In this document: one piece after another, positions 20,649 to 64,000 of the stretch
Layout of the letters: each line of letters starts with the position of its first letter
Numbering within the stretch: the first letter of the stretch is position 1
From: Eledone cirrhosa
Lineage: Eukaryota
Direction of reading: 5' to 3'
Assembly: GCA_964016885.1 (NCBI GenBank)
Contig: OZ024741.1
Location: 166,656,001-166,720,000, forward strand
Length of the DNA stretch: 64,000 bases
Position numbers and translations under genes: made by a program
The notes under the pieces: model-generated
What the model was told of the DNA's origin: nothing
The model's database searches: none
The model's input: the letters and a program-made list of their open reading frames with translations, nothing else

Positions 20649-20650
<2 letters not shown>
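19197..20650 (+). mobile_element. 5'-truncated RTE-PHD LINE copy with open C-terminal frame
   Basis: ORF 19165-20265 (real from ~19198): GVHQGSVLSP, YADD, PHD finger, FRYLG, RWYGHVMR. Nearly identical to 25151-26580; (GAT)n tail; both ends lie in (TA)n. Confidence 0.93.
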
Positions 20651-20699
<49 letters not shown>

Positions 20700-20830
20700 T
20701 ATATATATATATATTTATATATATATTTATATATATATATTTATATATATATATTTATATATATATATATTTATATATATATATTTATATATATATATAT
20801 TTATATATATATTTATATATATATATATAT

Positions 20831-22989: not shown

Positions 22990-25900
22990 ACGGACTGCGG
23001 AATCCTGGAGAGTGGAAGGGAGAGAAAAATCTGGACTCTCAGAGCGAAAATGCCAAAGTTAAAGTCAAATTCACCTCGTGGACGAGAATGCGAGCACTCC
23101 TCTTTGTTTCGTCCGCGGATGGCTAACATAACCCTATCTCCCCCCGCCCCCACCACCCCCACCCTCCAAACGCAACCCAAAACTTCAGAGTTGGTACCAT
23201 AAATGTAGGCACCCTAAAGGGTCGCGCTAACGAGGTTGTAGAAATGCTTGAACGTAAGGAGGTCGATGTTTGTTGTATTCAAGAGACCAGGTGGAGGGGT
23301 GGGTCTGCTAGATTCATTGAGGGTAAAAAACGATGTTATAAGCTTTTCTGGGTGGGAAACGACGATGGGCTGGGTGGAGTAGGAATCATGGTAGCAGAAA
23401 AGTGGGCAGATAAGATAATAGACGTAAATAGAGTGAACGACAGAATAATTAAAATACGACTTGTCCTCAATAGAACTACGGTGACAGTAATATCTGCGTA
23501 CGCACCCCAATCCGGACTGCCCGGCACTATAAAAGACAGATTCTATGAGACACTGTTGCTAACTACCTCCCAAATATCTGACAGTGACTATATAATTATT
23601 GCAGGCGACCTAAATGGTCACGTTGGACAACATTGTGACGGCTACGACGAAATCCATGGAGGCTATGGGTTTGGTACTAGAAATGAGGAAGGCTCCAGAA
23701 TCCTGGAATTCTGTGATGCAAATAACCTAACTATCTGTAACACTAACTTCAAAAAACGTGACAATCACCTGATCACCTATAGATCCGGGGAACACACAAG
23801 CCAGGTAGATTATATCCTTACCAGAAGACGTGACAGAGTGTCTGTTGTAAACACTAAATCCCTCCCCCATGAAGAATGCACCTCCCAACATAGACTGATA
23901 ATTAGCGACCTCATAGTCAGGACGAGACGTACTCGACAGCAGAAGAGGACTATCCTCAGGAGGAAAATATGGAAACTAAAGGACCCCACAGCCAGAAATA
24001 AATTTCAAAGCATATTACTTGATGCTTTCGACAGTAAGGAAGAGCATCTAGAATCGGACAATATAGAGGGACAGTGGGAATTTCTGAAAGCAAACCTGCT
24101 GTTGGCGACAGACGAAGTCTGTGGCTGGAGCAGGCCTGTAGGCAGGAGGAGAGTAACATGGTGGTGGAACAGTAGGGTGGAGGGGTCAATTAAGGCCAAA
24201 AAGCAGGCTTGGAAAGTATGGCGGGATGGGGGAAGTAGAGTAGACTATCAAGTGGCCAGGAGGGAAGCTAGGAGAGAAGTGTACTTAGCAAGAAGGGAAG
24301 CTGAGGAAAGAAAGTTCAAGCATGTTCTACAACGCGATGACCAAAAACGTGAGGTGTTCATGATTGCTAGGCAATGCGTCAAGGAAAACCGTGATATTGT
24401 CGGGGAGAAGTGTGTACTTAACGATGATGGCATACTTGCCATCACCGACACTGATAAGAAGGTAGCTTGGAAGTGTCACTATGAAAGGCTACTAAATGAG
24501 GAGAATAAATGGAAGAAAGACAGTCTCCCCCATATCGACCCAATAGAGGGACCAGCAGTGTTAGTCGAGGGGAGTATAATAAGTAAGGCAATCAAGGATA
24601 TGAAGACGGGTAAGGCGGCTGGGCCTTCGGAAATAGTTGCTGAGATGCTGAAGGCATCTGGCACGGTGGGACACACCATGGTCACCCGCATAGTTAACCA
24701 AGTCGTACAGAATGGGGTTGTTCCGAAGGACTGGCATAGCAGCATCATCGTTAACTGTTATAAGGGTAAAGGAGACGCCCTAAATAGGAGTAACTATAGA
24801 GGCATTAAATTAATCGACCAGGTCATGAAGGTCACGGAAAAAGTAATAGCGCAACTAATCAGAGAGAGAATTGACCTAGATGAAATGCAGTTCGGGTTTG
24901 TGTCAGGCAAAAGCACCACAGACGCTCTTTTCATAGTACGACAACTACAGGAGAAGTACCTAGCTAAAGGTAAACCCCTCTACTTAGCTTTTGTCGACCT
25001 GGAGAAAGCCTTCGACAGAGTCCCCCGCTCCATTATCTGGTGGGCTCTTAGAAAACTAGGCGTTGACGAATGGCTTGTGAGGGCTATACAAGCCATGTAT
25101 AAAGAAACAGTCAGCAAGGTTAGAATTAACAACGAATATAGTGAAGAGTTTAGCGTAAAAGTTGGCGTCCATCAGGGCTCTGTTCTCAGCCCCCTACTAT
25201 TTATTATTGCCCTTCAGGCTATAACAGAGGAGTTCAAGACAGGCTGCCCATGGGAACTCCTATACGCAGACGACCTGACACTCATAGCGGAATCAATGGC
25301 CGAGCTAGAGAAGAAATTCCAAACATGGAAGCACGGCCTAAAATCAAAAGGACTTAAAATTAACCTGGCTAAGACCAAAGTTCTAGTTTGTAGGAAAGAA
25401 AACAAGGCGGCGGTCCCTTCTGGGAAATGGTCGTGCTCGGTGTGTAGGAAAGGCGTAGGTAGAAACTCCATTTTATGTCCTAAATGCAAAGTATGGGTGC
25501 ATAAAAGATGTAGTGGGATCACAGGTAAGCTAACTAAGAACATAGATTTTACATGTGGCCGGTGTTCTGGTGCAATAAGTAGCAGCAAGTGCCCACAAAA
25601 TACTAGCTCTTTCAATTGCGCAGAGGGTTCTATAGAAATAGTGGACAGCTTCCGTTACCTGGGCGATAAAATCAGCAGTGGGGGAGGGTGCTCTGAAAGT
25701 ACTGTAGCTAGAGTCAGAACTAGTTGGAAAAAGTTCAGAGAGCTTATACCACTATTAGCTGCTAAAGGGTTCTCCCTAAAAATGAAAGGCAGGTTGTACG
25801 ATGCCTGCATACGAACAGCAATGTTGCATGGTAGTGAGACCTGGGCATTGTGTGCAGAGGATATACGCAGACTAGAGAGGAACGAAGCTTGCATGCTCCG

Positions 25901-26580
25901 CTGGATGTGTAACAGTAATATACGTGAACGGCAAAGCATAAACGAACTAAGGAAAAAATTAGAGATAAGAGGGATCAGATGTTGTTTACTCGAGAGAAGG
26001 CTGCGTTGGACACGTGATGCGCATGAAAGTCGATAGCTGTATAACAAAGTGCAGGGCAATAAAGATAGACGGTAGCCACGGAATAGGCAGACCTAGAAAA
26101 ACCTGGGATGAGCTGATAAACTCCGACCTCACACACTTACACCTCTCCAAGACAATGTCACTGGACCGAGACCTTTGGCGGTACTCAGTAACAGAGAAGA
26201 CCCGCCTTGCCAGTAGGCATCTCTAACAAAATACACCCCGTCCCGCCACCACCCCCACCCCATCCACACCACCCCGTTCTATGTAAAGTTATGTTGGTGC
26301 CGCGCCATCCAGGCCGAAACAAATGAGATCGTGTAGGTGTCACGACAAAAAAACACACAGTCCACGCTGTAATGTGGCCGTGTAGGCAACACGGTAAAAA
26401 CCTCCCAGACCCACACTGTAAATGTGGTTGATGTTAGGAAGGGCATCCAACTGTAGAAAACCTGCCAGACAGTCCTATGCGAGCAAGACAATCACTCTTG
26501 CCTCAAGTGGGACTACCCCCGTCCAAACCCATGCAAGCATGGAACACGGACGTTAAACGTTGATGATGATGATGATGATG
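22990..26580 (+). mobile_element. Near-full-length RTE-clade LINE (RTE-PHD family)
   Basis: Single long APE-RT ORF, 3' UTR with GTTAGGAAGGGCATCC and CCATGCAAGCATGG stem, (GAT)n tail running into (TA)n. The 5' boundary is approximate. Confidence 0.93.
23244..26036 (+). CDS. RTE LINE polyprotein: APE endonuclease and reverse transcriptase with inserted PHD finger
   Basis: IQETRW, AYAPQ, AGDLNGHVG, VDYIL (APE); NYRGIKL, FVDLEKAFDRVP, QGSVLSP, YADD (RT); C4HC3 at 25434-25565. The frame is open from 23127 (GTINVGTL), probably frameshifted in the C-runs. A 5-bp deletion at ~26008 moves the C-terminus into ORF 26014-26226. Confidence 0.92.
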   Translation: MLERKEVDVCCIQETRWRGGSARFIEGKKRCYKLFWVGNDDGLGGVGIMVAEKWADKIIDVNRVNDRIIKIRLVLNRTTVTVISAYAPQSGLPGTIKDRFYETLLLTTSQISDSDYIIIAGDLNGHVGQHCDGYDEIHGGYGFGTRNEEGSRILEFCDANNLTICNTNFKKRDNHLITYRSGEHTSQVDYILTRRRDRVSVVNTKSLPHEECTSQHRLIISDLIVRTRRTRQQKRTILRRKIWKLKDPTARNKFQSILLDAFDSKEEHLESDNIEGQWEFLKANLLLATDEVCGWSRPVGRRRVTWWWNSRVEGSIKAKKQAWKVWRDGGSRVDYQVARREARREVYLARREAEERKFKHVLQRDDQKREVFMIARQCVKENRDIVGEKCVLNDDGILAITDTDKKVAWKCHYERLLNEENKWKKDSLPHIDPIEGPAVLVEGSIISKAIKDMKTGKAAGPSEIVAEMLKASGTVGHTMVTRIVNQVVQNGVVPKDWHSSIIVNCYKGKGDALNRSNYRGIKLIDQVMKVTEKVIAQLIRERIDLDEMQFGFVSGKSTTDALFIVRQLQEKYLAKGKPLYLAFVDLEKAFDRVPRSIIWWALRKLGVDEWLVRAIQAMYKETVSKVRINNEYSEEFSVKVGVHQGSVLSPLLFIIALQAITEEFKTGCPWELLYADDLTLIAESMAELEKKFQTWKHGLKSKGLKINLAKTKVLVCRKENKAAVPSGKWSCSVCRKGVGRNSILCPKCKVWVHKRCSGITGKLTKNIDFTCGRCSGAISSSKCPQNTSSFNCAEGSIEIVDSFRYLGDKISSGGGCSESTVARVRTSWKKFRELIPLLAAKGFSLKMKGRLYDACIRTAMLHGSETWALCAEDIRRLERNEACMLRWMCNSNIRERQSINELRKKLEIRGIRCCLLERRLRWTRDAHESR

Positions 26581-26601
26581 ATATATATTTATATATATAT
26601 A

Positions 26602-26647
<46 letters not shown>

Positions 26648-27026
26648 TAGTCCTTCATCAGTGATCTTCCAACCATCATTGGTATTTCATCGCTTTAAAG
26701 ACCATATACCTCCAGTTGGTGCTAGCAACGGCTAAAAAAAAGTCGTTGGGACAGCGAGAGTGTAAACAAACAAAGATGGTGAAGCAACGAAAAGTGAGGA
26801 AGAACGAGTCAAGTCCCAAATTTCCATGAATATAAGTTCGGTGAAATCGTGAACGAGAGAGAATAAAGACCATCAAACCTGGTTGGAATGTGAGCAAGGA
26901 AAGAATTCCGTACAGGTCTAATGGGAGGAAGAAGGAATCTAGTCTGTGAATTCGGTGAACATAAGTTCTGTGAAATCGTAGATGAGAGAGAGAAAAAAGG
27001 CGAACCAGCCTGACCAAGCGTGCGAA

Positions 27027-27107: not shown

Positions 27108-29290
27108 TAGTCTGCTTCTCCCTGCTTTCAAGGGTGGGACGGGACCTATTCAGCACAGCATCTCTCCACTTGTCATGGTCCTTCGCCATCTCCACCAAGA
27201 GCTTCAACGGTCTGAGGTTTGCTCTCACCACCTCCGCCCATATTTTTTGTGGTCTACATCTACCATGTCTTCCTTCAACTGGCATTTCTTCACCCATCGG
27301 TCATCCTCCATGCGCATCACATGTCCATACCACCGCAGTCTCCTCTCTCGCATACTACAATCTATCCCTCTCAGACAGTTTTTCTCTCAACACATCCATG
27401 CTCGGTCGTTCACGCACATTGACATTGCACATCCAACAGACCATGTTTGCCTCATTTCTCTCCAGCCGTCGCATATCCTCTGCAGTTGCTGCCCATGTCT
27501 CACTACCATGCAGCATATAACCAGCCTTTTGCATGCAGGGAGAAACCCTTCTTCGTCAGCAGAGGAAGCAACTCCCTAAACTTCTTCCAACCCGTCCTTA
27601 TTCTAGATACTATGGCCTCGGAACACCCCCTCCCATGCTAATCTGATCACCTAGGTACCGGAAGCTATCAACCACTTCTATAGTACCCACCTGTATTTGA
27701 AACATGTGTCTATCAATGCGATTACTACTATCCCTGTACATCTACTGCATACGTATTTCTCCCTACCTGTTAGTTTTCCTGCTATCCCACTACATCTCTT
27801 GTGTACCAAAGATCTGCATTGTGTGCATTTTATAGAATTTATGCCAGTTCCTATTCTGCATATCAAACATGGCCATTTCCCTGATGGAATCAGAGTTTTG
27901 TCCTCTTTTCTACTCATCAACACTTTTGTTTTAGCTATGTTCACTGTCAGGCCTCTTGATTCCAAATGCTGTTTCCATAGCCAGAATTTATTCTCTAGCT
28001 CCTCTACTGATTCTGCTATAAGAACCAGATCGTCAGCATAGAGAAGTTCCCATGGACAGCCAGTCTTAAACTCCTCTGTTATGGCTTGGAGGACTATAAT
28101 GAACAAGAACCGGCTGAGGACCGAACTCTGATGTGCTCCTACTTGTATCTGGAATTCCTCACTAAAATCCATTCTACCCTCACTTTACTGACAGCACTTT
28201 TGTACAAAGTTTTCACTGTCCTCACAAGCCATTCCACAACACCTAGTTTCCTTAGGGACCACCAGATGACAGATCGGGGTACCCTATCAAAGGCCTTCTC
28301 TAGGTCAACAAAAGCTAAGTATAGTGGCTTATTCTTCTCTAAGAACCTCTCTTGTAGTTGCCTCACTAAGAAGAGGGCATCTGTTGTACTTTTCCCAGGC
28401 ACAAAACCAAACTGCATGTCATCTATTTTGACCCTTTCTCTAATTAGTTGTGCTAGCACTTTTTCTGTCACTTTCATAACCTGATCCATCAGTTTTATGT
28501 CCCTATAATTGCTTCTGTCCAAAGCATCCCCTTTACCTTTGTAGCAATTTACAAGAATACTGCTGTACCAGTCTTTGGGTATGACTCTGCCATATATAGC
28601 TTGTTTGACTATGCGTGCAACCAGTTTAGTGCCTACTTCTCCTGATGCCTTCAGCATCTCAGCAACTATCCCTGATGGTCCAGCGGCCTTACCACTTTTC
28701 ATTTCCTTAATTGTCTCTTTGACCCTATAATCATCAATCTCAATAGCTGGTCCCTCTGTTGGGTCTGTTGAGGGTAGTTTCTCTCTCTCTCCTATTCATT
28801 CTAAACATTCATCAGTCTCTCCTAATGACATTTCCAGGCCTCCTTTTTCTGATCATTCGTGACACTAAGTACACTGGCATCATTCCAGACACATTTATCT
28901 CCAACAACATCATGATTTGCATTGACACGCTGCCTTGACAACATTGCATTGACAACACTGCATTGACAACACTGCATTGACAACACTGCATTGACAACAC
29001 TGCATTGACAACACTGCACGTCTCTGATCTTCCCGTCGCAGAACATTGGCAAACCTCCTACTTTCAGCCTCCCTGCATGCTAAGTACACCTGACGTCTAG
29101 CTTCTCTCTTAGCGGCTGTATATCCTTCTCTACTCCGAGCCTTATTCCAAGCCTTCTATGCTAGTCTTTTGTCTCTAATAACCCTACCTACTGTGCTGTT
29201 CCACCACCAGGTCACTCTCTGTCTGGTTGGAGCTCTGCTCCAGCCACAAGTTTCATCAGTAGCCTGCAATAAGTTGTCATGTAAGAAATT
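27108..29290 (-). mobile_element. Decayed RTE-PHD LINE (second subfamily), 5'-truncated
   Basis: ORFs 28139-28702 and 27678-28172 (RT, LYADD, CLIC..CTQC..H..C..CSRC); very similar to 10190-11455; contains a 14-bp CATTGACAACACTG expansion at ~28920-29018. Confidence 0.9.
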
Positions 29291-29362
29291 CCATCTTGAA
29301 GGGCTTTCCTAAATACATATATATATGTATATATATGTGTGTGTGTGTGTGTGTGTATATAT

Positions 29363-34822: not shown

Positions 34823-34867
<45 letters not shown>

Positions 34868-35030
34868 TATATATCATATATTATATATATATATAAATAT
34901 ATATATATATGATATATTATATATATATATATATTTATATTATATATATATATATATATATTTATATTATATATATATTTATATTATATATATATTTATA
35001 TTATATATATATATATATTTATATTATATA

Positions 35031-36440
35031 TTCATCATCATCATGGTTTAACGTCTATCTTCCATGCCAGCATGGGTTAGACGGAAATTGTCCCACTTGA
35101 GGCAAGATTGGTCGGGTGATTGTGTCTCGCTCATATAGGACTGTCTGGTGGGTTTTCTATGGCTGGATGCCCTTCCTAACACCAACCACATTTACAGTGT
35201 GGACTGGGAGGTTTTTACCATGTTACCTACACGGCCACATTACAGCGTGGACTGTGTGTTTTTTTGTCGTGACACCCACACGACCTCATTAGTTTGGACT
35301 GGATGTTGTGGTACCTACATAACTTTATAGAGAAAGGATGGTGTTGGTGGGAGTGGAAGGATGGAGTAGGGGTAGTGGGTTGGGGTGTATATTTGGTTAA
35401 GAGGTGCCTACTGACTACAGGTTTCGCTTTGTACATAGGCAAGGCGGGTCTTCCGTATTACTGCGTGGCGCCAAATATCTCAGTCCAGTGACATTGTCTT
35501 AAAGAGGTGTAAGTGTGTAAGGTCGGAATTTATCAAATCGCCCCAGGTTTTTCTGGGTCTACCTACTCAGTACCTTCCATCAATTTTGATCACCCTGCAC
35601 ATTTTTATACAGCTGTCGTCTTTCATGCGCATCACGTGACCATACCAAAGTAGACTTCTCTCAAGTAAACAGCCTCTGATCCCTCTTATTCCTAATTTCT
35701 CACTTAGTTCGTTTATGTTTTGCTGTTTGTGTATATTACTATTACACATCCAATGGAGCAAGCATGCTTTGTTCCTCTCCAGTCTTCGTAGGTCTTCTGC
35801 ACACAATGCCTATGTCTCACTGCCATGTAGCATTGCTGTTCATATACAGGCATCATACAATCTGCCTTCCATTTTTAGAGAAACCTTTTGTGGCCAACAG
35901 CGGTATACGCTCTCTGAACTTTTTCCATCCCATTCTGACTCTGGCTACTGTACTTTCAGATCACTCTCCACCACTGCTGATTTTGTCACCCAGGTAACGG
36001 AAAATGTCCACTATTTCTGTAGAACCATCTGGGCAATAGAAGGAGCTAGTATCCTGTCGGCACTTGCTACTTATTGCACCTGAGCATCAGACACATAAAA
36101 TCTACGTTCTTAGAAGATAGCTTACCTGTCATCCCACTACATCTTTTATGTACCCATACTTTGCATTTGGGACATAAAATGGAATTTCTACCTACTCCTT
36201 TCCTACACACTGAGCATGGCCATTTCCCAGAAGGCACCTGTACCCTATTTTCCTTTCTATATACTAGAACTTCAGTCTTAGACAAGTTAACTTTAAGGCC
36301 TTTTGATTGTAGGCCATACTTCCATGTGTGGAATTTCTTCTCTAATTCAGCCATTGATTCAGCTATGAGAGTTAGATCATCTGCGTATATAAGTTCCCAT
36401 GAGCAGCCAGTCTTAAACCCCTCTGTTATAGCCTGAAGGG
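35031..36440 (-). mobile_element. 5'-truncated RTE-PHD LINE copy
   Basis: ORF 36067-36528 (LIYADD, CSVC..CPKC..WVH..C) and 35567-35806; 3' UTR and (GAT)n tail; flanked by (TA)n. A further tail fragment lies at 36727-36910 (+). Confidence 0.88.
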
Positions 36441-36441
36441 C

Positions 36442-36477
<36 letters not shown>

Positions 36478-41720: not shown

Positions 41721-41737
41721 ACATATATACATACACA

Positions 41738-41779
<42 letters not shown>

Positions 41780-41784
41780 ATATA

Positions 41785-41849
<65 letters not shown>

Positions 41850-42056
41850 TATACATATATACATATATATACATACATATATATATACATACATATATAT
41901 ATACATACATATATATATACATATATATATACATACATATATATATACATATATATATACATACATATATATATACATACATATATATATACATACATAT
42001 ATATATACATACATATATATATACATACATATATATATACATATATATATATATAC

Positions 42057-42095
<39 letters not shown>

Positions 42096-42240
42096 CATAC
42101 ATATATATATACATACATATATATATACATACATATATACATACATATATATATACATACATATATATATACATACATATATATATACATACATATATAT
42201 ATACATACATATATATATACATATATATATACATATATAC

Positions 42241-42271
<31 letters not shown>

Positions 42272-42272
42272 C

Positions 42273-42343
<71 letters not shown>

Positions 42344-42806
42344 CATATATATACATATACATATATATACATATACATATATATACATATACATACATAT
42401 ATATATATATACATATATATATACATACATACATATATACATATACATACATATATATATATATACATATATATATACATACATACATATATACATACAT
42501 ACATATATATATACATACATATATATATATACATACATACATATATATACATACATACATATATATACATACATACATATATATACATACATACATATAT
42601 ACATACATACATACATATATACATACATACACATATATATATATATATACACATACATATATACATACATACATATATATATATATATACATACATATAT
42701 ATATATATATACATACATACATATATACATACATACATATATATATATATATACATATATATATACATACATACATATATACATACATACATATATATAT
42801 ATATAT

Positions 42807-42855
<49 letters not shown>

Positions 42856-42885
42856 TACATACATACATACATACATACATACATA
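41721..42885. repeat. ~1.16-kb compound (TA)n/(TACA)n/(CA)n microsatellite
   Basis: Seen directly. Similar arrays at 44505-44991, 49805-50262 and 50842-51463; a nearly pure (TA)n tract at 62829-63080. Confidence 0.95.
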
Positions 42886-43930
42886 CAGTAACACCTTCAA
42901 CAGAGGAAAAAGGTTGGCGACCATCTTGCTCAGGTTTATGAGCATGAAAAAAGAAATATCATTAGAATAGCGACTGATCTGGAGGAGAGATATGGAATAA
43001 AGCCTGATATAAATCTCTCACCCAGAGAAATCGGAAGATCCTATTCAATGTTCAAACAAGAAAAAAAAATTGACCAATTTACAGAGAAAGTTGTGCATGG
43101 ATACTTGAGGCGTAAAACACAGACCATAGAGGGGATAAACCACTCAAAAAGCCTGGCATGGAGTTCCGACAAGTTTATGACATCACACCTTGAGGGATAT
43201 CTCTATGCAATACAGGAACAAGAACTCCCTACCAAATATCTGCTGCACAAAAGAGGAGGGCCAGCAGCTGACAATAAATGTAGGCTATGTAAAACAAAGA
43301 TCGAGGATGTAAGCCGCATTGTTGCCAGCTGCGAAAGAATGTAATCTCGCTACTACCTCCCCATGAGACACGATGGGAGAGCTAGAACCATCTGGAACGC
43401 ACTTCGGAAAACAAAATTAACAACAAACGAGGAAGAATATATTGAGACAGATGGCACTAAGGAATACTGGTGGAACCTGAAAATAAAAACTGCCACCAAA
43501 TTAAGCACAACCGGCCTGATATTGTAGTTTGGGACCACACATTGAGAACGTGTTCTGTTGTGGAGATCAGCTGCCCACTTGTGTAAACGTTGTCAGAAAA
43601 ATACAGGAGAAGGAGGACATCTACGGACCATTGATGAGGAGTTTACAAATCCAGTATCCAAGATACACCTTTAGCTTCATATCCATCATTATTGGTGCTA
43701 CGGGTTATATACCAACCCGCTTGGACCAAAGTATGACCGAACTTGGATTTGCGGACAAAAAGCGCAGCTCCCTAATTCATAGTCTACAAATGGCTGCGAT
43801 AGCTGGCACCTTCAAAATATGCAAAACATTCTTGCGATTCAAGGGATGACAATTTCTTTTCTTTTACAACCTTGCCACCAGGAAGGTGGCCGGTCAAAAA
43901 AATATACTCGAAATTAAGAGAAAGAGAAAA
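42886..43930 (+). mobile_element. 5'-truncated R4/Dong-like element
   Basis: Near-identical to 47972-49012 (zinc knuckle and RLE region); flanked on both sides by (TACA)n. Confidence 0.9.
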
Positions 43931-43940
43931 CATACATACA

Positions 43941-43976
<36 letters not shown>

Positions 43977-44040
43977 TATACATACATACATATATATATA
44001 TACATATACATACATACATACATATATATATATATATACA

Positions 44041-44490
44041 TGGTGGCTGCCAACTCGTTTTCGAGTACGGCCACTACTTTACATCCATGTAGGATAACCC
44101 CTACCGAAGCGCTGAACGAGTGTGACTTTTTAGTCCAGCCAGCGACTTGAAACCTCTGGTACAAACACTACACCTGTGACAATCATTGACACATAGTGCT
44201 GGGCCCATGGTAGGACAATTATTGACACATAGTGCTGGGCCCATGTGAGGACAAGTGCAGAGAGATCTCCAGATATAAAGCAATGCCTGTGCCGTGAAGC
44301 TTTTATAGTGAGCAAAGGCACTGCACAAAGCCAGTCCCACTCTCTTAACCAAGATGATATTTACCAAAAAGAAGAACAAGTCAACATCATTGGATTACCA
44401 TCAGGGTTGCAGGTGTTATATCAGAGTTTTCCTTCTCCTAGAATTCTGCCTTGACAAAGGCTAAGGGGTCATCTCTCCCGGTGATTTTGG
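44041..44490 (-). mobile_element. Bipartite non-autonomous RTE derivative, copy A (5'-truncated)
   Basis: Minus strand: RTE 5' UTR motif CTAGGAGAAGGAAAACTCTGAT fused to an ORF end [19 protein letters not shown], a 3' stem CTCGAAAACGAG and a TATG/TA tail. Confidence 0.75.
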
Positions 44491-44510
44491 ATGTATATTT
44501 TGGATATATA

Positions 44511-44546
<36 letters not shown>

Positions 44547-44574
44547 TATAGATACATACATATACATACATACA

Positions 44575-44610
<36 letters not shown>

Positions 44611-44785
44611 CATACATACATACATATATATATATACATACATACATACATATATATACATACATACATACATATATATATATACATACATACATATATA
44701 TATATACATACATACATACATATATATACATACATACATACATACATATATATATATATACATACATATATATATATATACATAC

Positions 44786-44822
<37 letters not shown>

Positions 44823-44831
44823 CATACATAC

Positions 44832-44866
<35 letters not shown>

Positions 44867-44915
44867 CATACATATATATATATACATATATATATATACA
44901 TACATATATATATAC

Positions 44916-44964
<49 letters not shown>

Positions 44965-44991
44965 CATACATATATATATATATACATACAT

Positions 44992-47900
44992 AATATGGCG
45001 ACCGTTGTGGTCAGTGTCCGATAATCGGACGTGTGTAATTATGGCTTACATGAAGGCAACATACCATATATTGGAAAAATTTGAGCTACATTACGCGGTA
45101 AGATTACATACAATAATTCTACATAAGTGTTTGAACTGTAAGTGTGTTGTAAAACACCTATTTATATGAACGATACATACACTTATGATATATGAACGAT
45201 ACATACACTTTAACATATAAATGCAACGTTGTTATATTACATTTATAAAGAAATATTACATTTATATAAAACACAGCTGTAGAATTAAAAACTAACTGAA
45301 AAGAAATATTACTCAAGCTGTGAATAACTTTAAATTTGATTCTGACAGAACTTTGTCGTAACTTTTAAAGAAGATCATCGACTATTTTGAAAAATAAATA
45401 CGAAATATTAGTGAATAGACGAACTCATCATGGCAAAAAGTACAAGTCTCCTTCGACCAAATCGCAATTACAACCGTTGTATACAGTGGACCTACGAGCT
45501 TAACAAAGTATTATATGAAGCATACAAACAATCTGAACCCCAAAAGTTCGGTTTTATGCAAAGGCTAAAAACTTTATGGAACTCCAAACACCCAGAATTA
45601 GACTTTTCTCCAAAGCATTTAAATGAACAGGCAAAACGTATCATTAGATGTAAATTGATACATCTAACGGAATCGAGTGGTACTACAAATACAGCCCTTG
45701 TAGACAACCACCCCACCTCCACTGACAGACAAAGGGAATGGCCAGCTAAATCTAACAGTGAACAGCTCACCAACAATTTTGCTGAAATTCATCCCACTTC
45801 CACTGAAGAACAGCGAGAAAGGTCAGCTGACTCTAGTAGTAATTGTCACCACATCAACAACGAGGCTGAAATTCATGACTCTACTGAACAAACAGAGCAC
45901 CAAAAACTTGTGGGCTCCCTACAAGTGATATGGAATGATATGTTTCAAGAGATACACAGCCTTAATGTGAGTGACAGACCATACAACACTAGAGTCAGTA
46001 AAGAACCCACTAAATTGGAAGCGGTGAACGAAATAGCTGGCAATTATCTGAAGGCTATACGATCTAAAGGTGTAGAAACGACATTTGAAACGCTTAATGT
46101 TTTGTTATATGTTTCAGCTGTCACATTGCTATCATATAACACACATCTAAAACCACGCAATCAAGATACAAACAGAAAGCCTGAACCAGCGTGGATGCGA
46201 AATTTAGAAACCAAAATTTTGTCCCTGAGACGAAGTATCTCACACATCGCAGTCGTTATGAAATGCAACATAGAGAGCAACTTCACACAACACCAGGAAG
46301 ACCTAAAGAAAAAGTTAGAGAGAAGATTTGGAGATACAAAATTTAAAACTTTGAACTCCAAATTACACCAGTTGAAACAACAACTCACAGCTACAACAGA
46401 AAGACTAAAATATAAGTCAACAGCACATAAACGACAAGTGCTAAATAGATTGTTTGCCAGAGATCCTAAATCAGTTTATCGCAGCTTCGGTGGCAAAAGC
46501 TCAATCTCTGTAAATGACACCCCTTCAAAAGAACAGGTTGAGAGCTACTGGAGATCTGTATGGGAAACGGATGACGGATTCAACAGACAAGCTAATTGGC
46601 TAAAAGAACTGGAACAGGACTACTGCCAACATGTCCAGACAAAACAATATGACATAGATGGGTCAATACTGGAAACATCTCTACAGAAAATGTCGAATAG
46701 GAAATCGCCAGGCCCAGACCTCATTACAGGATACTGGTTGAAGAATTTCACTTTCTATCGGCAAGATCTCATACGGCTGTTTACAGAAACCATTAAGGGC
46801 ACACAAGAACTGCCCAGATGGTTATCAACTGCCTCTACTCTCCTCATTCCCAAAAATAGCCAAACCACCCTTGCTAAAAATTACCGCCCAATTGCCTGCC
46901 AAAACATCATGTATAAATTATATACTGGGTGCCTTAACCTGTTCTTACAGGATCACTGTGCTACCAACAACATCATAACACCTGAGCAAGCTGGTGGAAA
47001 GAGGGAGGTGTGGGGTTGCATAGATCACCTACTAACTAACAAAATGATTCAGGAAAAAACAACAAAGAATCGCAGAAACATGACTGTCGTGTGGCTGGAC
47101 TATCAAAAAGCATTTGATAGTGTACCTCATGGGTGGATTGTTAAGGCTTTACAGTTAGCTAAAGTCCCACAACCATTGGTAGCTGCTGTTGAACGCCTGA
47201 CCAAGAACTGGTACACCAGTTTGATCCTTAGAGGTGAGAAGGAGCAGGTTAAGACTGATAAGATACATTACCAGAAGGGCATCTTTCAGGGTGATAGCTT
47301 GTCAGTGCTACTCTTCGTTCTCTCACTGAATCCACTATCTTACCTACTCAGGAAACAAGGTCGACAAAGAAGTGGGACCAGAAGTATCTCCCATCTTTTC
47401 TTTGTTGATGACCTGAAGTTGTATGGGCCAAATATCAATGACATCAAGAAACAATTGGACCTCATTACACAATTTTCAACCGACATCAAAATGAAATTTG
47501 GTGAGTCCAAGTGTGCATATTTGGCAGTAAAACGTGGAAGAGCTGTGCCCTCCTCTAGAAATCTAGAGATGAACGGCCTGACAATACAACCTCTGCAGTC
47601 AGGTGACAACTACAGATATCTTGGACAGGATGAGAATGTCAGATATGATGGACCCATAAATAAGGAGAGAACCAGAACTGAATACCTCAGAAGAGTAAAG
47701 AAAATATGGTCATCAGAACTGTCAGCATACAACAAATACATTGCCCACAATACTTATGCTGTGCCAATTCTAACGCCAACATTTGGCCTACTGAACTGGT
47801 CATTGCAAGAACTAAGTGAGATGGATGTTAGAACTCGAAAACTTCTCAGTGTTACTGGGAACTTTAACATCAATGGTGATGTGGATAGGCTATACTTCTC

Positions 47901-49012
47901 ACGCAAGGAAGGTGGCCGGGGTCTAAAATCAATATTAACAACATATGAGACCCGGATAGTGACACTGAAGCAACACCTTCAACAGAGGAAAAAGGTTGGC
48001 AACCATCTTGCCCAGGTTTATGACCATGAAAAAAAAAATATCATTAGAATAGCGACTGATCTGGAGGAGAGATATGGAATAAAGCCCGATATAAATCTCT
48101 CACCCAGAGAAATCGGAAGATCCTATTCAATGTTCAAACAAGAAAAAAAAATTGACCAATTTACAGAAAAAGTTGTGCATGGATACTTGAGGCGTAAAAC
48201 ACAGACCATAGAGGGGATAAACCACTCAAAAAGCCTGGCATGGAGTTCCGACAAGTTTATGACATCACACCTTGAGGGATATCTCTATGCAATACAGGAA
48301 CAAGAACTCCCTACCAAATATCTGCTGCACAAAAGGGGAGGGCCATCAGCTGACAATAAATGTAGGCTATGTAAAACAAAGATCGAGGATGTAAGCCACA
48401 TTGTTGCCAGCTGCGAAAGAATGTCATCTCGCTACTACCTCCCCATGAGACACGATGGGATAGCTAGAACCATCTGGAACGCACTTCGGAAAACAAAATC
48501 AACAACAAACGAGGAAGAATATATTGAGACAGATGGCACTAAGGAATACTGGTGGAACCTGAAAATAAAAACTGCCACCAAATTAAAGCACAACCGGCCT
48601 GATATTGTAGTTTGGGACCACACATTGAAAACGTGTTCTGTTGTGGAGATCAGCTGCCCACTTGTGTAAACGTTGTCAGAAAAATACAGGAGAAGGAGGA
48701 CATCTACGGACCATTGATGAGGAGTTTACAAATCCAGTATCCAAGATACACCTTTAGCTTCATACCCATCATTATTGGTGCTACGGGTTATATACCAACC
48801 CGCTTGGACCAAAGTATGACTGAACTTGGATTTGCGGACAAAAAGCGCAGCTCCCTAATTCATAGTCTACAAATGGCTGCGATAGCTGGCACCTTCAAAA
48901 TTTGCAAAACATTCTTGCGATTCAAGGGATGACAATTTCTTTTCTTTTACAACCTTGCCACCAGGAAGGTGGCCGGTCAAAAAATATACTCAAAATTAAG
49001 AGAAAGAGAAAA
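44992..49012 (+). mobile_element. Near-full-length R4/Dong-clade RLE non-LTR retrotransposon
   Basis: ~440-bp 5' UTR, single ORF, short 3' UTR ending AGAGAAAA; embedded in TACA/TA microsatellite. Confidence 0.9.
45430..48669 (+). CDS. R4/Dong-like polyprotein: Myb-like N-terminus, RT, CCHC knuckle and PD-(D/E)xK endonuclease (C-terminus continues in the -1 frame to 48932)
   Basis: SPGPD, NYRPIAC, DYQKAFDSVPH, GIFQGDSLS, FVDDLK, YRYLG, EGGRGL, CRLC..HIVASC, RHD, RPDIVVWD..VEISCP; then EKEDIY..IPIIIGATG in the other frame. Confidence 0.9.
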   Translation: MAKSTSLLRPNRNYNRCIQWTYELNKVLYEAYKQSEPQKFGFMQRLKTLWNSKHPELDFSPKHLNEQAKRIIRCKLIHLTESSGTTNTALVDNHPTSTDRQREWPAKSNSEQLTNNFAEIHPTSTEEQRERSADSSSNCHHINNEAEIHDSTEQTEHQKLVGSLQVIWNDMFQEIHSLNVSDRPYNTRVSKEPTKLEAVNEIAGNYLKAIRSKGVETTFETLNVLLYVSAVTLLSYNTHLKPRNQDTNRKPEPAWMRNLETKILSLRRSISHIAVVMKCNIESNFTQHQEDLKKKLERRFGDTKFKTLNSKLHQLKQQLTATTERLKYKSTAHKRQVLNRLFARDPKSVYRSFGGKSSISVNDTPSKEQVESYWRSVWETDDGFNRQANWLKELEQDYCQHVQTKQYDIDGSILETSLQKMSNRKSPGPDLITGYWLKNFTFYRQDLIRLFTETIKGTQELPRWLSTASTLLIPKNSQTTLAKNYRPIACQNIMYKLYTGCLNLFLQDHCATNNIITPEQAGGKREVWGCIDHLLTNKMIQEKTTKNRRNMTVVWLDYQKAFDSVPHGWIVKALQLAKVPQPLVAAVERLTKNWYTSLILRGEKEQVKTDKIHYQKGIFQGDSLSVLLFVLSLNPLSYLLRKQGRQRSGTRSISHLFFVDDLKLYGPNINDIKKQLDLITQFSTDIKMKFGESKCAYLAVKRGRAVPSSRNLEMNGLTIQPLQSGDNYRYLGQDENVRYDGPINKERTRTEYLRRVKKIWSSELSAYNKYIAHNTYAVPILTPTFGLLNWSLQELSEMDVRTRKLLSVTGNFNINGDVDRLYFSRKEGGRGLKSILTTYETRIVTLKQHLQQRKKVGNHLAQVYDHEKKNIIRIATDLEERYGIKPDINLSPREIGRSYSMFKQEKKIDQFTEKVVHGYLRRKTQTIEGINHSKSLAWSSDKFMTSHLEGYLYAIQEQELPTKYLLHKRGGPSADNKCRLCKTKIEDVSHIVASCERMSSRYYLPMRHDGIARTIWNALRKTKSTTNEEEYIETDGTKEYWWNLKIKTATKLKHNRPDIVVWDHTLKTCSVVEISCPLV

Positions 49013-49196
49013 CATATATACATACATATATATATATATACATACATATATATATATACATACATACATATATATATACATACATACATATATATATACA
49101 TACATATATATATATATACATACATATATATATATATACATACATATATACATACATATATATATATATACATATATACATACATATATATATATA

Positions 49197-49805
49197 TGGT
49201 GGCTGCCAACTCGTTTTCGAGTACGGCCACTACTTTATATCCATATAGGAGAACCCCTACCGATGCAGTGAACCAGTGTGACCTTTTAGTCCAGCCAGCG
49301 ACTTGAAAACTCTGGTACAAACACTACACTTGTGACAAATATTGACACATAGTGCTGGGGCCATGGTACCCTGTGACGACAAGTGCAGAGAGATCTCCAG
49401 ATATAAAGCAATGCCTGTGCCGTGAAGCTTTTATAGTGAGCAAAGGCACTGCACAAAGCCAGTCCCACTCTCTTAACCAAGATGATATTTACCAAAAAGA
49501 AGAACAAGTCAACATCATTGGATACCATCAGAGTTGCAGGTGTTATATCAGAGTTTTCCTTCTCCTAGAATTCTGCCTTGACAAAGGCTAAGGGGTCATC
49601 TCTCACGGTGATTTTGGATGGCCATTGACTCTTAAGAGCTCCTTTGCCCTTTGACAGGTCTTGTTTTTAGTCCTGCAGGATGTCCAAAGTCACCCTCCTC
49701 ACCAAGAAACCTTGGTGGGGTTGCCAGTTTAGTCGCCAACGACCCGACCATGGGACAGGTTGTACTGGGATACATGTTACCAGTAGCACCAACTGGTGAC
49801 CTGAC
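49197..49805 (-). mobile_element. Bipartite non-autonomous RTE derivative, copy B (longest)
   Basis: Homologous to copies A, C and D; flanked by TA/TACA arrays. Confidence 0.78.
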
Positions 49806-49975
49806 ATATATATATATATACATACATATATACATACATATATACATATATATATATATACATATATACATACATATATATATATATATACATATATACA
49901 TATATACATATATACATACATATATATATATATACATACATATATATATATATACATATACATATATATATATAC

Positions 49976-50006
<31 letters not shown>

Positions 50007-50262
50007 CATACATATATATATATATATATACATACATATATATATATATATACATACATATATATATATATATATACATACATATATATATACATACATA
50101 CATATATATATACATACATATATATACATATATATACATACATATATATATACATACATATATATATATATATATACATACATATATATATACATACATA
50201 TATATATACATACATATATATATATATATATACATACATATATATATACATACATATATATA

Positions 50263-50842
50263 TGGTGGCTGCCAACTCGTTTTCGAGTACGGCCACTACT
50301 TTATATCCATGTAGGAGAACCCCTACCGATGCGCTGAACGAATGTGACTTTTTAGTCCAGCCAGCGACTTGAAAACTCTGGTACAAAGACTACACTTGTG
50401 ACCATTATTGACACATAGTGCAGGGCCCATGGTACCATGTGATGACAAGTGCAGAGAGATCTCCAGATATAAAGCAATGCCTGTGCTGTGAAGCTTTTAT
50501 AGTGAGCAAAGGCACTGCACAAAGCCAGTCCCACTCTCTTAACCAAGATGATATTTACCAAAAAGAAGAACAAGTCAACATCATTGGATACCATCAGGGT
50601 TGCAGGTGTTATATCAGAGTTTTCCTTCTCCTAGAATTCTGCCTTGACAAAGGCTAAGGGGTCATCTCTCCCAGTGATTTTGGATGGCTATTGACTCTTA
50701 AGAGCTCCCTTGCCCTTTGACAGGTTTTGTTTTTAGTCCTGCAGGATGTCCAAAGTCACCCTCCTCACCAAGAAACCTTGGTGGGGTTGCCAGTTTAGTC
50801 GCCAACGACCCGACCATGAGACAGGTTGTACTGGGATACATG
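50263..50842 (-). mobile_element. Bipartite non-autonomous RTE derivative, copy C
   Basis: Tandem with copy B, separated from it only by microsatellite. Confidence 0.78.
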
Positions 50843-51848
50843 ATATATATACATACATATATATATACATACATATATATATACATACATATATATATAT
50901 ATACATATAAATATATATATATACATACATATATATATAAATATATATATATACATACATATATATAAATATATATATATACATACATATATATAAATAT
51001 ATATATATACATACATATATATATAAATATATATATATACTTACATATAAATATATATATATATACATACATATAAATATATATATATACATACATATAT
51101 ATATAAATATATATATATACATACATATATATATAAATATATATATATACATACATATATAAATATATATATATATACATACATATATATATAAATATAT
51201 ATATATACATACATATATATATAAATATATATATACATACATATATATATAAATATATATATATACATACATATATATATAAATATATATAAATATATAT
51301 ATATACATACATATATATATAAATATATATATACATACATATATATATAAATATATATATATACATACATATATATATAAATATATATATATACATACAT
51401 ATATAAATATATATATATACATACATATATATATAAATATATATATATACATACATACATATATAGTTAGATTCGTTCCTCGAGTTATAATTTCGTATAT
51501 TACTCTCTAAAATGCTTGGTTAGCATATAATTTCGTATATTAGAGGGAAATTTGGAATCTGACGTTGCGTGACTATCGCATGTTTGAAAGGAAACAGACC
51601 GATTTGTCTATTGTTATATTTGGTGAGGGAAGCGGGGCGTCATATTAAAATATTGCCAGAAACCCCCCAAATATAACAATATCTGTTTCAACCAACGATT
51701 TCATATTAAAAACCTTACAAAACAAATACATCGCCGTCATAGACCTATTTACACATGAATATAATACATAAGACATGTTGAATATTTTACTATATTCAAC
51801 AGTAAAATATGCCAACACACCCTCCTGAGTTTTCTTGTTACTTTTCTT

Positions 51849-54787: not shown

Positions 54788-56431
54788 CACAGTGTAACAA
54801 AAAAATTTGTTTTCTCTGTTCCTGGCTTGTAATCACTTTTTTGTGTTGCTTAGGTCCCAAATAAATTTTAAAAAGTGCTATTAAACAGTTAAAAGTTTGG
54901 GTTTGTAAAAATTCTAAGCTATTCACTAGAATTATTTGTATGTTGGATTTTACGTTGTATGTAAGTTTAATTTGCTTATGTTAAATGATTTTTTTTATAT
55001 ATGTTTCAGGTTAAATTAAAATTATAAAATAAAGAGTAATACCTAAAGAAAATTATAAAAGTGCAATAAAGTATAAAATTGTTAAAAAGTGGATTAAAGA
55101 GATTTATTGATACTGGATTTTCGCACCCTGAATAAAGGGTAAGTTGTGTTTTAAGCATTCGTTTCCAGGATGAAGCAATGGAACTTGGTCAAGGAGGAAG
55201 TGCAGGTGACAAGTCAGAGAAGTCGACACGAACAATTCTCAGGCTGTTACACTCTTAGGGATGGCCTCTGCTTCTGCTATGACGTGCCTGGACTGTTTGG
55301 CTTTATTGGGGTGCCGTTTGTGCCCAAGGAGTGACGGCTATTTATAGACAGCTCCACCACAAGTTTGAAGGCTGTCCTCCTCCACAATGGAAACAAGTTC
55401 CCGACACTGCCTCTAGCTCATTCAGTGTGCCTGAAGGAAGATTACTACAGTGTGAAAGTCCTCTTGGAAGCTCTGCAATACAACCAGTACAATTGGGAAA
55501 TTATCGGAGACTTCAAGATGGTGGCTTTCCTGCTTGGACTCCAAGGAGGTTTTATCAAATTCCAATGCTTCCTCTGCCTTTGGGACAGCAGAGCCACCTC
55601 TGACCACTACAAAAGAAAGAACTGGGGGCAGCGAACAGAATTTGTAGTTGGGACCCGGAACGTCATGTGGGAGCCACTGGTTGATCCCAAGATTGTGCTC
55701 ATGCCGCCACTGCACATTAAGTTGGGGTTGATGAAGCAGTTTGTGAAGGCTCTCAACCAAGAATCAGCCGCTTTTAAGTACCTTCTTGAGTTCTTCCCTA
55801 AGTTATCTGAGGCCAAAATCAAAGGTGGAATTTTTGTTGGACCTCAGATAAAGAAGGTGTTTGAGTCTACCGAGTTCTCCAATAAGCTCAATAGGATTGA
55901 GAGAACAGCATGGAACTGTTTCAAGGCAGTTGTTAAGGGCTTCCTGGGCAACTACAGAGCTGAAAACTACCAGCAACTGGTGCAGGATCTGATAAAGGCT
56001 TTTGGCGCCATGGGATGCAGGATGTTGCTTAAACTCCATATGCTGGACGCTCACCTGGAAAAATTCAAGGACAATATGGGCGCCTACTCAGAAGAACAAG
56101 GCGAACGATTCCACCAAGATGTGAAAGAGATAGAGCAGAGGTACCAGGGCCACTACAATGAAAAAATGATGGGGGACTATATCTGGAGGCTAGTGCGGGA
56201 ATGCGACCTGGACTACAACCGAAAATCCAGGAAATATGAAAATTTCGAAATATCAAACTCCTGACGACAAACCCAAACTTCTGATTAAATAATAGTGTTT
56301 TTTTTTTATAATAATTGTTTCTATTTTAGGCACAAGGCCAGCAATTACCCAATTTTTTTTATAATAATGGGATATAACAAACCATGAAATGACACTTAGA
56401 ACCAGGGAACAAAAAAATATGTTACACGGTG
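54788..56431 (+). mobile_element. Chapaev3-like (CMC/Transib-related) DNA transposon
   Basis: Imperfect TIRs CACAGTGTAACA...GTTCCTGG / CCAGGGAAC...TGTTACACGGTG; 3-bp TSD TAA (54785-54787 and 56432-56434). Confidence 0.8.
55163..56264 (+). pseudogene. Chapaev3-like DDE transposase with an in-frame stop (E*RLFIDSS) and missing N-terminus
   Basis: KAVLLHNGN, GDFKMV, CFLCLWDSR, PPLHIKLG, GIFVGPQI, KLHML..H, SEEQGERFHQD; TGA replaces W at ~55332. Confidence 0.8.
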
Positions 56432-57199: not shown

Positions 57200-58236
57200 G
57201 TGTGGCCATCACGAGAACAGCTCGACTGTTTTCTTTCTTTTGTCCAATCTTTCCATCCTGCTCTCAATTTCACCGCCTCTGTCTCCGATTCTTCTGTCGC
57301 TTTTCTAGATATCTCTCTATCTGTTAATCACTCTCACCACACCCTCCCTACTTCCATCTACATTAAACCAACAGACTCCCAATCTTATCTCGACTTCACC
57401 TCCTCCCATCCAACCCACACCAAACACTCCATACCCTATTCCCAATTCCTCCGTCTTCGTCGTCTCTGTACCCAGGACGACGATTTCGAAACCCATTCCC
57501 TTCGCATGGCTTCCTGCTTCATCCAGCGTGGATATCCCCCCCCCCCCCACCTTGATCCAAGCTGCTCTCACCCGCGCCCGTGAAACAAACTGCACCACAG
57601 CCCTCTCACCTCATCCCCGCCCTTCCAACACCCGTGTTCCTTTCCCTCTCACCTATCACCCTACCACTCCGGCGACATATCCTCCGTTCCTTCCGTATCC
57701 TCTCTTCTGACCCCGTCACTTCTCACTTTTTTCCAAACCGACCTAATATTGCTTTTAAGCGCGCCCGAAACCTCTGCCACCTCCTGGTTCGCAGTTCTTT
57801 TTCGTCCTCTCCCACGACTCCACTCGGCTCTCATCCTTGTTCCCGTTCCCGCTGCAACACTTGTCCTTTTATTTCCACCCTCCCCACTCTTACAGGCCCT
57901 AACGGGTCTTTGCGTATCCGCCATTCCTTCACCTGCACATCCACCCACGTTGTCTATGCCCTCCAGTGTTCTCTTTGTGGGCCTTTATATATCGGACAAA
58001 CGGGACGCCGTATGGCGGACCGTTTTGCCGAACATTTGAGGGACATACAACTCAGTTTGGATATTCCTGTCGCCTGTCATTTCTGTTCTGGTCATTCTTC
58101 CCTACATGTTTCAGTCTTGGGTGTCCTTTTACATCATGGATCACAGGCCTTGCGCACCAGGACTGAACAAAGTCTGATTCACCGTCTTGGGTCCTATTCC
58201 CCTCTTGGACTCAACTCACCTCCCCAATTTCTCTAA
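57200..58236 (+). pseudogene. Penelope-like element 3' part: RT thumb and GIY-YIG endonuclease, frameshifted
   Basis: FLDISL..IYIKPTD..YLDFTSSHP..SIPYSQFLRLRRLC; C..CNTC; VVYALQCSLC..YIGQTGR..RFAEH..GLN. Confidence 0.88.
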
Positions 58237-63660: not shown

Positions 63661-64000
63661 TACATACATACATGGTGGCTGCCAACTCGTTTTCGAGTAC
63701 GGCCACTACTTTATATCCATGTAGGAGAACCCCTACCTATGCGCTGAACGAGTGTGACTTTTTAGTCCAGCCAGCGACTTGAAAACTCTGGTACAAACAC
63801 TACACTTGTGACAATTATTGACACATAGTGCTGGGCCCATGGTACCATGTGATGACAAGTGCAGAGAGATCTCCAGATATAAAGCAATGCCTGTGCCGTG
63901 AAGCTTTTATAGTGAGCAAAGGCACTGCACAAAGCCAGTCCCACTCTCTTAACCAAGATGATATTTACCAAAAAGAAGAACAAGTCAACATCATTGGATA
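63661..64000 (-). mobile_element. Bipartite non-autonomous RTE derivative, copy D (runs off the window)
   Basis: Same 3' end as copies A-C, with a short (ATGT)3 tail abutting unique DNA. Confidence 0.78.

What the first reader, a model, noticed from the sequence alone, without database searches (positions are those of the whole stretch)
41721..51463. Microsatellite seeder and targeter pair: a non-autonomous RTE derivative makes (TACA)n tails and R4/Dong lands in them
Seen: copy D of the bipartite element ends in a short (ATGT)3 tail next to unique DNA (63661-63673), so the TACA repeat belongs to its tail. Copies A-C have this tail expanded to roughly 100-450 bp. Both Dong copies sit in TACA/TA arrays with their 3' ends tail-to-tail with a bipartite copy. 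By-eye comparison gives ~2% divergence between the Dong copies but ~7% plus indels between the 3' parts of bipartite A and B, which favours independent Dong insertions over one block duplication. Established: Dong-family R4 elements are microsatellite-specific (TAA repeats in Bombyx). Inference: this is a TACA-specific RLE element whose target sites are manufactured by an unrelated retroposon, producing a 10-kb self-nesting hotspot.
Basis: partly seen in the sequence, partly recalled or inferred. Interest (0 to 1): 0.75.

Follow-up and report, generated by a model that had tools for sequence, protein, structure and literature searches.

The report
Two retrotransposons share one microsatellite
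Five copies of two unrelated jumping genes sit stacked in one long TA/ACAT repeat, facing opposite ways; across the genome both kinds have the repeat on both sides, so both likely insert into repeats that already exist, rather than one building landing sites for the other.

Summary
The anatomy is real: one (TA)/(ACAT)n array holds Dong1(+), A(-), Dong2(+), B(-), C(-). The Dong-like element is repeat-specific: 90 of 90 resolved 5' junctions abut arrays. The 'seeder' idea fails. The 606-bp element is an internal-deletion derivative of an RTE-like LINE and is itself a repeat tenant. Its 5' flanks are arrays too. 8,790 of 28,144 3' ends carry no ATGT unit, and its 'tail' mirrors the 5' flank like a target-site duplication. 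The element neighbours Dong upstream as often as downstream (26 vs 24 of 90). That rate is about 100-fold above random positions but inside the wide range for random ACAT sites. Best reading: co-targeting of one microsatellite from opposite strands. An (ACAT)n target for a Dong and a repeat-seeking RTE were not found in my ten paper searches. This scan has noted the same system several times elsewhere in this genome.

The parts
41721..42887 (.). (TA)/(ACAT)n array ending in (CA)n and (ACAT)n; 5' flank of Dong1
   Evidence: TRF; 133 ACAT, 0 ATGT on + strand
42888..43929 (+). Dong1: 5'-truncated R4/Dong-like LINE (last 1.04 kb), several stops and frameshifts
   Evidence: 98.3% identical to the 3' end of Dong2
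43930..44041 (.). (ACAT)n/(AT)n spacer between the 3' ends of Dong1 and copy A
44042..44493 (-). Bipartite RTE derivative, copy A, 5'-truncated, 28-bp internal duplication
44496..44992 (.). Array between the 5' ends of A and Dong2 (head-to-head)
44995..49011 (+). Dong2: near full-length R4/Dong-like LINE; single reading frame 45415-48669 (RT, CCHC, start of the RLE motif), broken by a 1-bp deletion near 48662; 5' UTR has an internal deletion relative to most full-length copies
   Evidence: intact 1,174-residue frames (stop to stop) in other copies
49012..49197 (.). Array between the 3' ends of Dong2 and copy B
49198..49805 (-). Bipartite RTE derivative, copy B, full length (about 606 bp): RTE 5' UTR joined to the last 180 bp of the RTE
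   Evidence: positions 1-430 are 96.7% and 427-606 are 91% identical to the two ends of the RTE in L301
49806..50263 (.). Array between B's 5' end and C's 3' end
50264..50842 (-). Bipartite copy C, lacking about 24 bp at the 5' end; its two flanks share a 37-bp direct repeat (TSD-like)
50843..51465 (.). Array on the 5' side of C; end of the nest
63661..63673 (.). 13-bp TACA run: edge of a second array, interrupted by copy D
63674..64000 (-). 3' half of full-length bipartite copy D; continues beyond the window into a 77-bp array, a third Dong and a second Dong-like family
   Evidence: L221

Best explanation
This is one TA/(ACAT)n microsatellite holding five copies of two unrelated retrotransposon families, which likely both insert into pre-existing repeats from opposite strands. 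The R4/Dong-like LINE has (ACAT)n on both sides of its sense strand (shown); its restriction-like endonuclease likely nicks the (ATGT)n strand (inferred). The RTE-like LINE and its 606-bp internal-deletion derivative have (AT)n or (ATGT)n on both sides of their sense strand (shown), so they face the other way. Their preference likely comes from the APE endonuclease, from pairing of the RNA 3' end with the target, or both (inferred). Tail-to-tail and head-to-head pairs then follow from polarity alone. Each insertion likely duplicates a piece of the repeat, which, together with slippage, keeps the target alive and lets nests grow.
For: Dong: 90 of 90 resolved 5' junctions abut arrays, 89 of 90 have two ACAT units within 40 nt (4 of 94 unresolved). 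30 of 30 3' ends picked without regard to flank run into ACAT-type repeats, some only a few units. The 15 of the first 100 ends lacking the exact ACATA start also begin with CATA/ACAT/ATAT-like sequence, one only briefly. RTE derivative: 48 of 64 5' flanks are alternating repeats vs 8.4% background; of the 16 others, 8 have an array within 60 nt, 5 are alignment ends inside the element or its parent, 3 are truly non-array. Genome-wide, 5,933 intact 5' ends follow a perfect (RT)5, about 56% of 10,603, vs 2.8% background for (RT)4. 3' ends: 8,790 start ATATATA and 9,295 start ATGTATG, of 28,144. Flank G content correlates across copies (rho 0.46, p 1.5e-4); direct repeats average 9.5 nt vs 6.3 +/- 0.6 in shuffled pairs, 0 of 300 reaching it; clear non-periodic TSDs of 12 and 14 nt in L167 and L211. 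Polarity 142 vs 5 among 165 copies. Next to Dong: 26 upstream vs 24 downstream of 90, discordant 21 vs 19, p 0.87. Autonomous RTE copies also abut arrays at the ends seen.
Against: ATGTATG follows the RTE 3' end about 470-fold above background vs about 16-fold for ATATATA, which allows a short intrinsic (AUGU)n RNA tail that could add units. The matched control is weak: 70-340 sites in 12-39 loci, 15-33% with intervals from 0 to 56%, so a modest true enrichment is not excluded. Samples come from contigs C1-C4 only, and the 94 Dong loci were picked by an ACATA start. Dong1 and Dong2 share a 1-bp deletion seen in only 3 of 81 copies, and Dong2 shares two rare variants with the third Dong 15 kb away, which plain independent insertion does not explain. 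No empty pre-insertion site was seen and no enzyme was tested.
Confidence: 0.85

Rival explanations
1. Seeder and targeter: the RTE derivative inserts anywhere, brings an (ATGT)n tail that expands, and Dong lands in those tails.
For: 27 of 94 Dong 3' ends have the element within 500 bp vs 0.27% of random positions. ATGTATG is about 470-fold enriched after its 3' end. RTEs do seed microsatellites in moths (PMC2887409, Discussion read). 3 of 64 copies have a non-array 5' flank. Several more Dong 3' arrays end at related RTE-like 3' ends.
Against: Arrays lie on both sides; 31% of 3' ends carry no ATGT unit; the repeat is part of the TSD instead of lying between TSDs, which fails the criterion of PMC2887409; upstream and downstream neighbours are equal; copy D has an array and a Dong at its 5' end; 68 of 94 Dong copies have no such element at the end of their 3' array.
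Confidence: 0.06
2. The nest arose by local duplication, gene conversion or 3' transduction of a Dong-array-bipartite unit.
For: Repeated unit Dong-array-bipartite; the rare 1-bp deletion shared by Dong1 and Dong2 (3 of 81 copies); the third Dong's nearest copy is Dong2. True duplicated loci exist elsewhere (L141/L142, L027/L028).
Against: Dong2 is only the 52nd-nearest of 80 copies to Dong1 and they carry different sub-lineage markers, though tree support is weak. A and B rank 84th and 104th of about 131 to each other. No congruence in 25 tail-to-tail pairs.
Confidence: 0.05
3. Passive accumulation: insertions are random but are retained, or assembled, preferentially in repeats.
For: Repeats are neutral ground; passive accumulation has been proposed for Drosophila Waldo (PMC3812793, passage).
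Against: Young copies (about 0.6% and 2% from the majority sequence) already show near-complete flank specificity and strict strand polarity; retention cannot give polarity.
Confidence: 0.04

Closest known systems
Dong (Bombyx mori), DongAg, DongBg: R4-clade microsatellite-specific LINEs
   Same: Single ORF with RT, CCHC and a C-terminal RLE-type motif; colinear end to end with a 1,279-aa B. mori protein (29% identity, E 2e-158; its database name is generic, so its being Dong-type is my inference); microsatellite on both sides. Dong-R4 is reported as recently active in Octopus vulgaris (PMC13282606, passages).
   Different: Reported target is (TAA)n (PMC3812793, passage); here it is (ACAT)n with fixed polarity, shared with a second Dong-like family at about 40-55% protein identity.
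Waldo (R1 clade; Anopheles, earwig)
   Same: Targets ACAY microsatellites (PMC3812793, passage), essentially the same repeat.
   Different: Waldo is an APE-type R1 element; here the targeter has an RLE-type C-terminus, so the target is convergent.
Bipartite non-autonomous RTEs (Bov-A, RTESINE1/2, WALLSI3, MAR4_MD)
   Same: 5' UTR plus 3' end of a parent RTE with the middle deleted (PMC5786205, passages).
   Different: Here parent and derivative sit inside TA/(ATGT)n arrays at both ends; about 28,000 3' ends.
Lepidopteran RTEs that generate microsatellite families (PMC2887409)
   Same: RTE 3' ends adjoin a microsatellite.
   Different: There the repeat is one-sided, lies between TSDs and insertion is described as not sequence-specific; here it is two-sided and part of the TSD.

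Membership tests
R4/Dong clade | Single ORF with non-LTR RT | tested here: met
   RVT_1 E 2.7e-23 in an intact copy; 10 intact frames among 94 loci
R4/Dong clade | C-terminal CCHC knuckle and PD..D restriction-like endonuclease motif, no APE domain | tested here: met
   C-x2-C...H...C and RPD..D motifs seen in the sequence and aligned with P0062; weak alignment of the CCHC stretch to R2; no APE family in Pfam. Motif meaning is recalled.
R4/Dong clade | No N-terminal C2H2 zinc fingers (unlike R2) | tested here: met
   No zinc-finger family in the N-terminus
R4/Dong clade | RT phylogeny groups with named R4/Dong elements | tested here: inconclusive
   No named references available; far closer to an unnamed B. 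mori protein (E 2e-158) than to R2 structures (E 1.7e-27)
R4/Dong clade | Insertion into a specific microsatellite | tested here: met
   90 of 90 5' junctions, 30 of 30 3' junctions
R4/Dong clade | Endonuclease cleaves the repeat | not testable with these tools
   Needs biochemistry
RTE clade (parent LINE) | One ORF with APE then RT, short 3' UTR | tested here: met
   L301: Exo_endo_phos and RVT_1 in one frame; about 4.07 kb; ORF runs to about 60 bp from the 3' end
RTE clade (parent LINE) | RT phylogeny with named RTEs | tested here: inconclusive
   1,924 homologs, none of the 120 listed named as RTE; assignment rests on architecture
Bipartite non-autonomous RTE | 5' and 3' ends of an autonomous partner, no ORF, own amplification | tested here: met
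   96.7% and 91% to the two ends of L301; 10,703 5' ends and 28,144 3' ends, parent included
Microsatellite-seeding RTE (PMC2887409) | Repeat on the 3' side only, lying between two TSDs | tested here: not met
   Repeat on both sides and inside the TSD

The most novel reading that the evidence does not exclude
An RTE lineage has evolved true microsatellite specificity and shares one target with an RLE element from the opposite strand, and it is the Dong, not the RTE, that builds the best targets: pure (ACAT)n runs at Dong 5' junctions have a median of 49 nt vs 20 nt at 3' junctions (p 6e-8, 90 copies), more than simulated duplications of 12-20 nt give. Dong would then synthesise or extend (ACAT)n at its 5' junction, a self-feeding loop that drives array growth and retroelement nests across this 3-Gb genome.
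Probability: 0.25. Interest if true: 0.62.

Novelty: new variant of a known kind. Interest (0 to 1): 0.4.

Why it matters
RTE elements are described as not sequence-specific (PMC2887409), so a family with near-complete repeat preference gives a natural case for asking whether an APE endonuclease or RNA-target pairing (model in PMC6007223) sets the site. An intact, young Dong with a four-base target differing from the known (TAA)n makes RLE target switching testable, of interest for site-specific integration tools. It also bears on practice: insertion calls for octopus RTE and Dong elements from short reads (as in PMC9115989) would be hard if insertions fall inside such arrays.

Tried and rejected
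A DNA search of the genome with the bipartite element returned nothing because its words are too common; exact patterns were used instead. Seeder model: rejected on bilateral arrays, absent tails, TSDs and symmetry. 3' transduction: Mantel test negative. TSDs at Dong junctions: 9 matches of 16 nt or more vs 5.7 +/- 2.1 in shuffles, not significant. Empty alleles: reads and contigs of four public runs laid on the D nest gave no usable empty-site joint. No RNA holder listed. Rfam: 55 hits, none near gathering score, nearly all repeat artefacts, no ribozyme. 3' end hairpins fold at z -2.0 and -2.5, suggestive only. Paper searches: 'RTE bipartite non-autonomous SINE octopus', 'RTE retrotransposon AT repeats preferentially inserted SINE' and 'Dong R4 clade tetranucleotide microsatellite' gave 0 papers; searches listed none describing this target in their titles or abstract openings. 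Repbase, Dfam and Kojima and Fujiwara 2004 were not available, and no supplements were opened; the repeat library of PMC13282606 or Repbase entries may already record these families and their target.
Full report
Setting. The window is G000:C2:166656001-166720000 of a 3.0-Gb animal genome. The closest named homolog of the Dong-like protein is from Argonauta hians (66% over the part covered), so an octopod is likely (inference).

Anatomy. From 41721 to 51465 the + strand reads: array, Dong1 (42888-43929, +, 5'-truncated), array, copy A (-), array, Dong2 (44995-49011, +), array, copy B (-), array, copy C (-), array. All six arrays have ACAT and no ATGT on the + strand, so they read as pieces of one polarised repeat. 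Dong1 and Dong2 differ by 1.73%; A and B by 4.0% plus indels, not 7%. Both values are near the family background (median pairwise 2.1% and 3.6% in 25 pairs). Dong2 encodes RT and a CCHC knuckle and is frameshifted inside the RLE-type motif; 10 of 94 other loci hold an intact frame. The intact protein is colinear with a B. mori protein and only distantly related to R2 structures. The bipartite element is an internal-deletion derivative of a 4.07-kb APE-RT LINE of RTE architecture: its first 430 bp match the parent's 5' UTR at 96.7% and its last 180 bp the parent's 3' end at 91% (L301).

Is Dong repeat-specific? Yes. 30 of 30 3' ends found by identity alone run into ACAT-type repeats, and the 14 truncated 5' junctions among them lie at or within about 30 nt of (ACAT)n. 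Exact patterns count 1,885 ends followed by ACATA and 2,377 ends with a flank-free pattern. The 15 of the first 100 that lacked the exact ACATA start (picked by eye) also begin in CATA/ACAT/ATAT-like sequence. I took 94 of the first 100 ACATA-ended copies on C1 with both flanks: 90 5' ends could be resolved and all 90 abut arrays, 89 with two ACAT units within 40 nt. Because the 5' side of truncated copies cannot come from the RNA tail, this is target preference.

Does the RTE derivative make the targets? (2) Among 64 copies not found through Dong (12 from 100 random 10-kb stretches, 52 from pattern searches), 48 have an alternating repeat right at the 5' junction vs 8.4% background; only 3 of the other 16 are truly non-array. 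Genome-wide about 56% of intact 5' ends follow a perfect (RT)5 (5,933 vs 10,603, not a strict subset) vs 2.8% background. (3) There is no constant tail: of 28,144 3' ends, 8,790 go straight into ATATATA and 9,295 into ATGTATG. (4) The 3' flank mirrors the 5' flank: G content correlates, direct repeats exceed all 300 shuffles, and L167 and L211 show non-periodic duplications of 12 and 14 bp. PMC2887409 (Discussion read) recognises a seeded repeat by its position between the TSDs; here it is part of them. (5) Seeding predicts the element only downstream of Dong; it is upstream in 26 and downstream in 24 of 90 (p 0.87), 50 of 52 neighbours on the opposite strand. Autonomous parent copies abut arrays as well.

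Independent insertion or duplication? Dong1 and Dong2 carry different sub-lineage markers and are not near neighbours among 81 copies; the tree has only 3 starred branches, so this rests on distances and markers. A, B, C and D are mostly not each other's nearest copies, and paired Dong and bipartite copies show no congruence. Against this: Dong1 and Dong2 share a deletion found in 3 of 81 copies, and the third Dong shares two rare variants with Dong2. Local conversion or a polishing artefact could explain it; untested.

Mechanism. Shown: two-sided repeats, strict opposite polarity (142 vs 5), TSDs for the RTE derivative. Inferred from standard target-primed reverse transcription: Dong nicks the (ATGT)n strand and the RTE the (ACAT)n or (TA)n strand; each event duplicates some repeat, so targets persist and nests build up. 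Whether the RTE's preference is enzymatic or due to RNA-target pairing, as modelled in PMC6007223 (passages), is open; the far stronger enrichment of ATGTATG than ATATATA after its 3' end leaves room for a short (AUGU)n RNA end.

Unexplained. Pure (ACAT)n runs are longer at Dong 5' junctions (median 49 nt) than 3' junctions (20 nt; p 6e-8), in both full-length and truncated copies, while simulations with 12-20-nt duplications give 18-20 vs 17 and the RTE derivative shows no significant asymmetry. Either Dong needs a long pure tract upstream or it extends the repeat there. DNA from four public runs did not yield an empty site to decide.

Comparison. Dong elements target (TAA)n and Waldo elements ACAY (PMC3812793, passages). 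RLE clades are mostly target-specific (PMC4640811, passages). Bipartite RTE derivatives are well known (PMC5786205, passages). RTE and Dong-R4 are known as recently active in octopus (PMC13282606, PMC9115989, passages), with no target mentioned in the passages I saw. Ten searches found no report of this target or of a repeat-seeking RTE; repeat databases and supplements were not checked. Earlier notes of this scan on other stretches of the same genome reach the same co-tenant reading; I consulted them after forming my view and they are not independent support.

Verdict. A real nest and a real target specificity; the seeder-targeter story is not supported. New variant of a known kind, interest 0.4.

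Noticed in passing
L221:950-2700 (just beyond window end): Second nest: D, array, third Dong copy, array, fragment of a second Dong-like family, array.
   Followed up: partly
L009, L051, L114, L149, L219, L232 and others: A second Dong-like family (about 40-55% protein identity where a coding part was in reach) whose 3' end was followed by ACAT-type repeats in all 19 ends seen, same polarity.
   Followed up: partly
L224, L242, L248, L249, L296, L008, L023: Several related RTE-like families with similar 3' hairpin ends also face Dong tail-to-tail across ACAT arrays.
   Followed up: no
window 23127-26649, 19197-20717, 27309-29293, 34830-36454: Another APE-RT LINE family with a PHD finger inside the ORF; several copies end in (TGA)n next to (TA)n arrays, in head-to-head and tail-to-tail stacks.
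   Followed up: no
window 48662 and 43579: Dong1 and Dong2 share a 1-bp deletion found in only 3 of 81 copies; conversion or assembly artefact.
   Followed up: partly
L274, L299, L131: Extremely truncated stubs (about 21 bp of Dong, about 14 bp of the RTE derivative) inside arrays, pointing to abortive insertions.
   Followed up: no
L073/L019 vs window 50264-50606: A bipartite copy 38 Mb away is identical to copy C over about 345 bp and also sits tail-to-tail with a Dong. One random stretch (L073) overlapped this Dong locus by chance; controls were run with and without it.
   Followed up: no
window 13442-14177: Near-perfect tandem array, 16 copies of a 46-bp unit.
   Followed up: no
window 57556-58236 and 55335-56264: Two open frames of 226 and 309 residues without Pfam match; by eye the first looks like a Penelope-type GIY-YIG end and the second like a DNA-transposon remnant (recalled, untested).
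   Followed up: no
G000:C12:17.03-17.49 Mb: Eight near-identical hits of the parent RTE spaced about 60 kb apart, suggesting a large tandem duplication.
   Followed up: no
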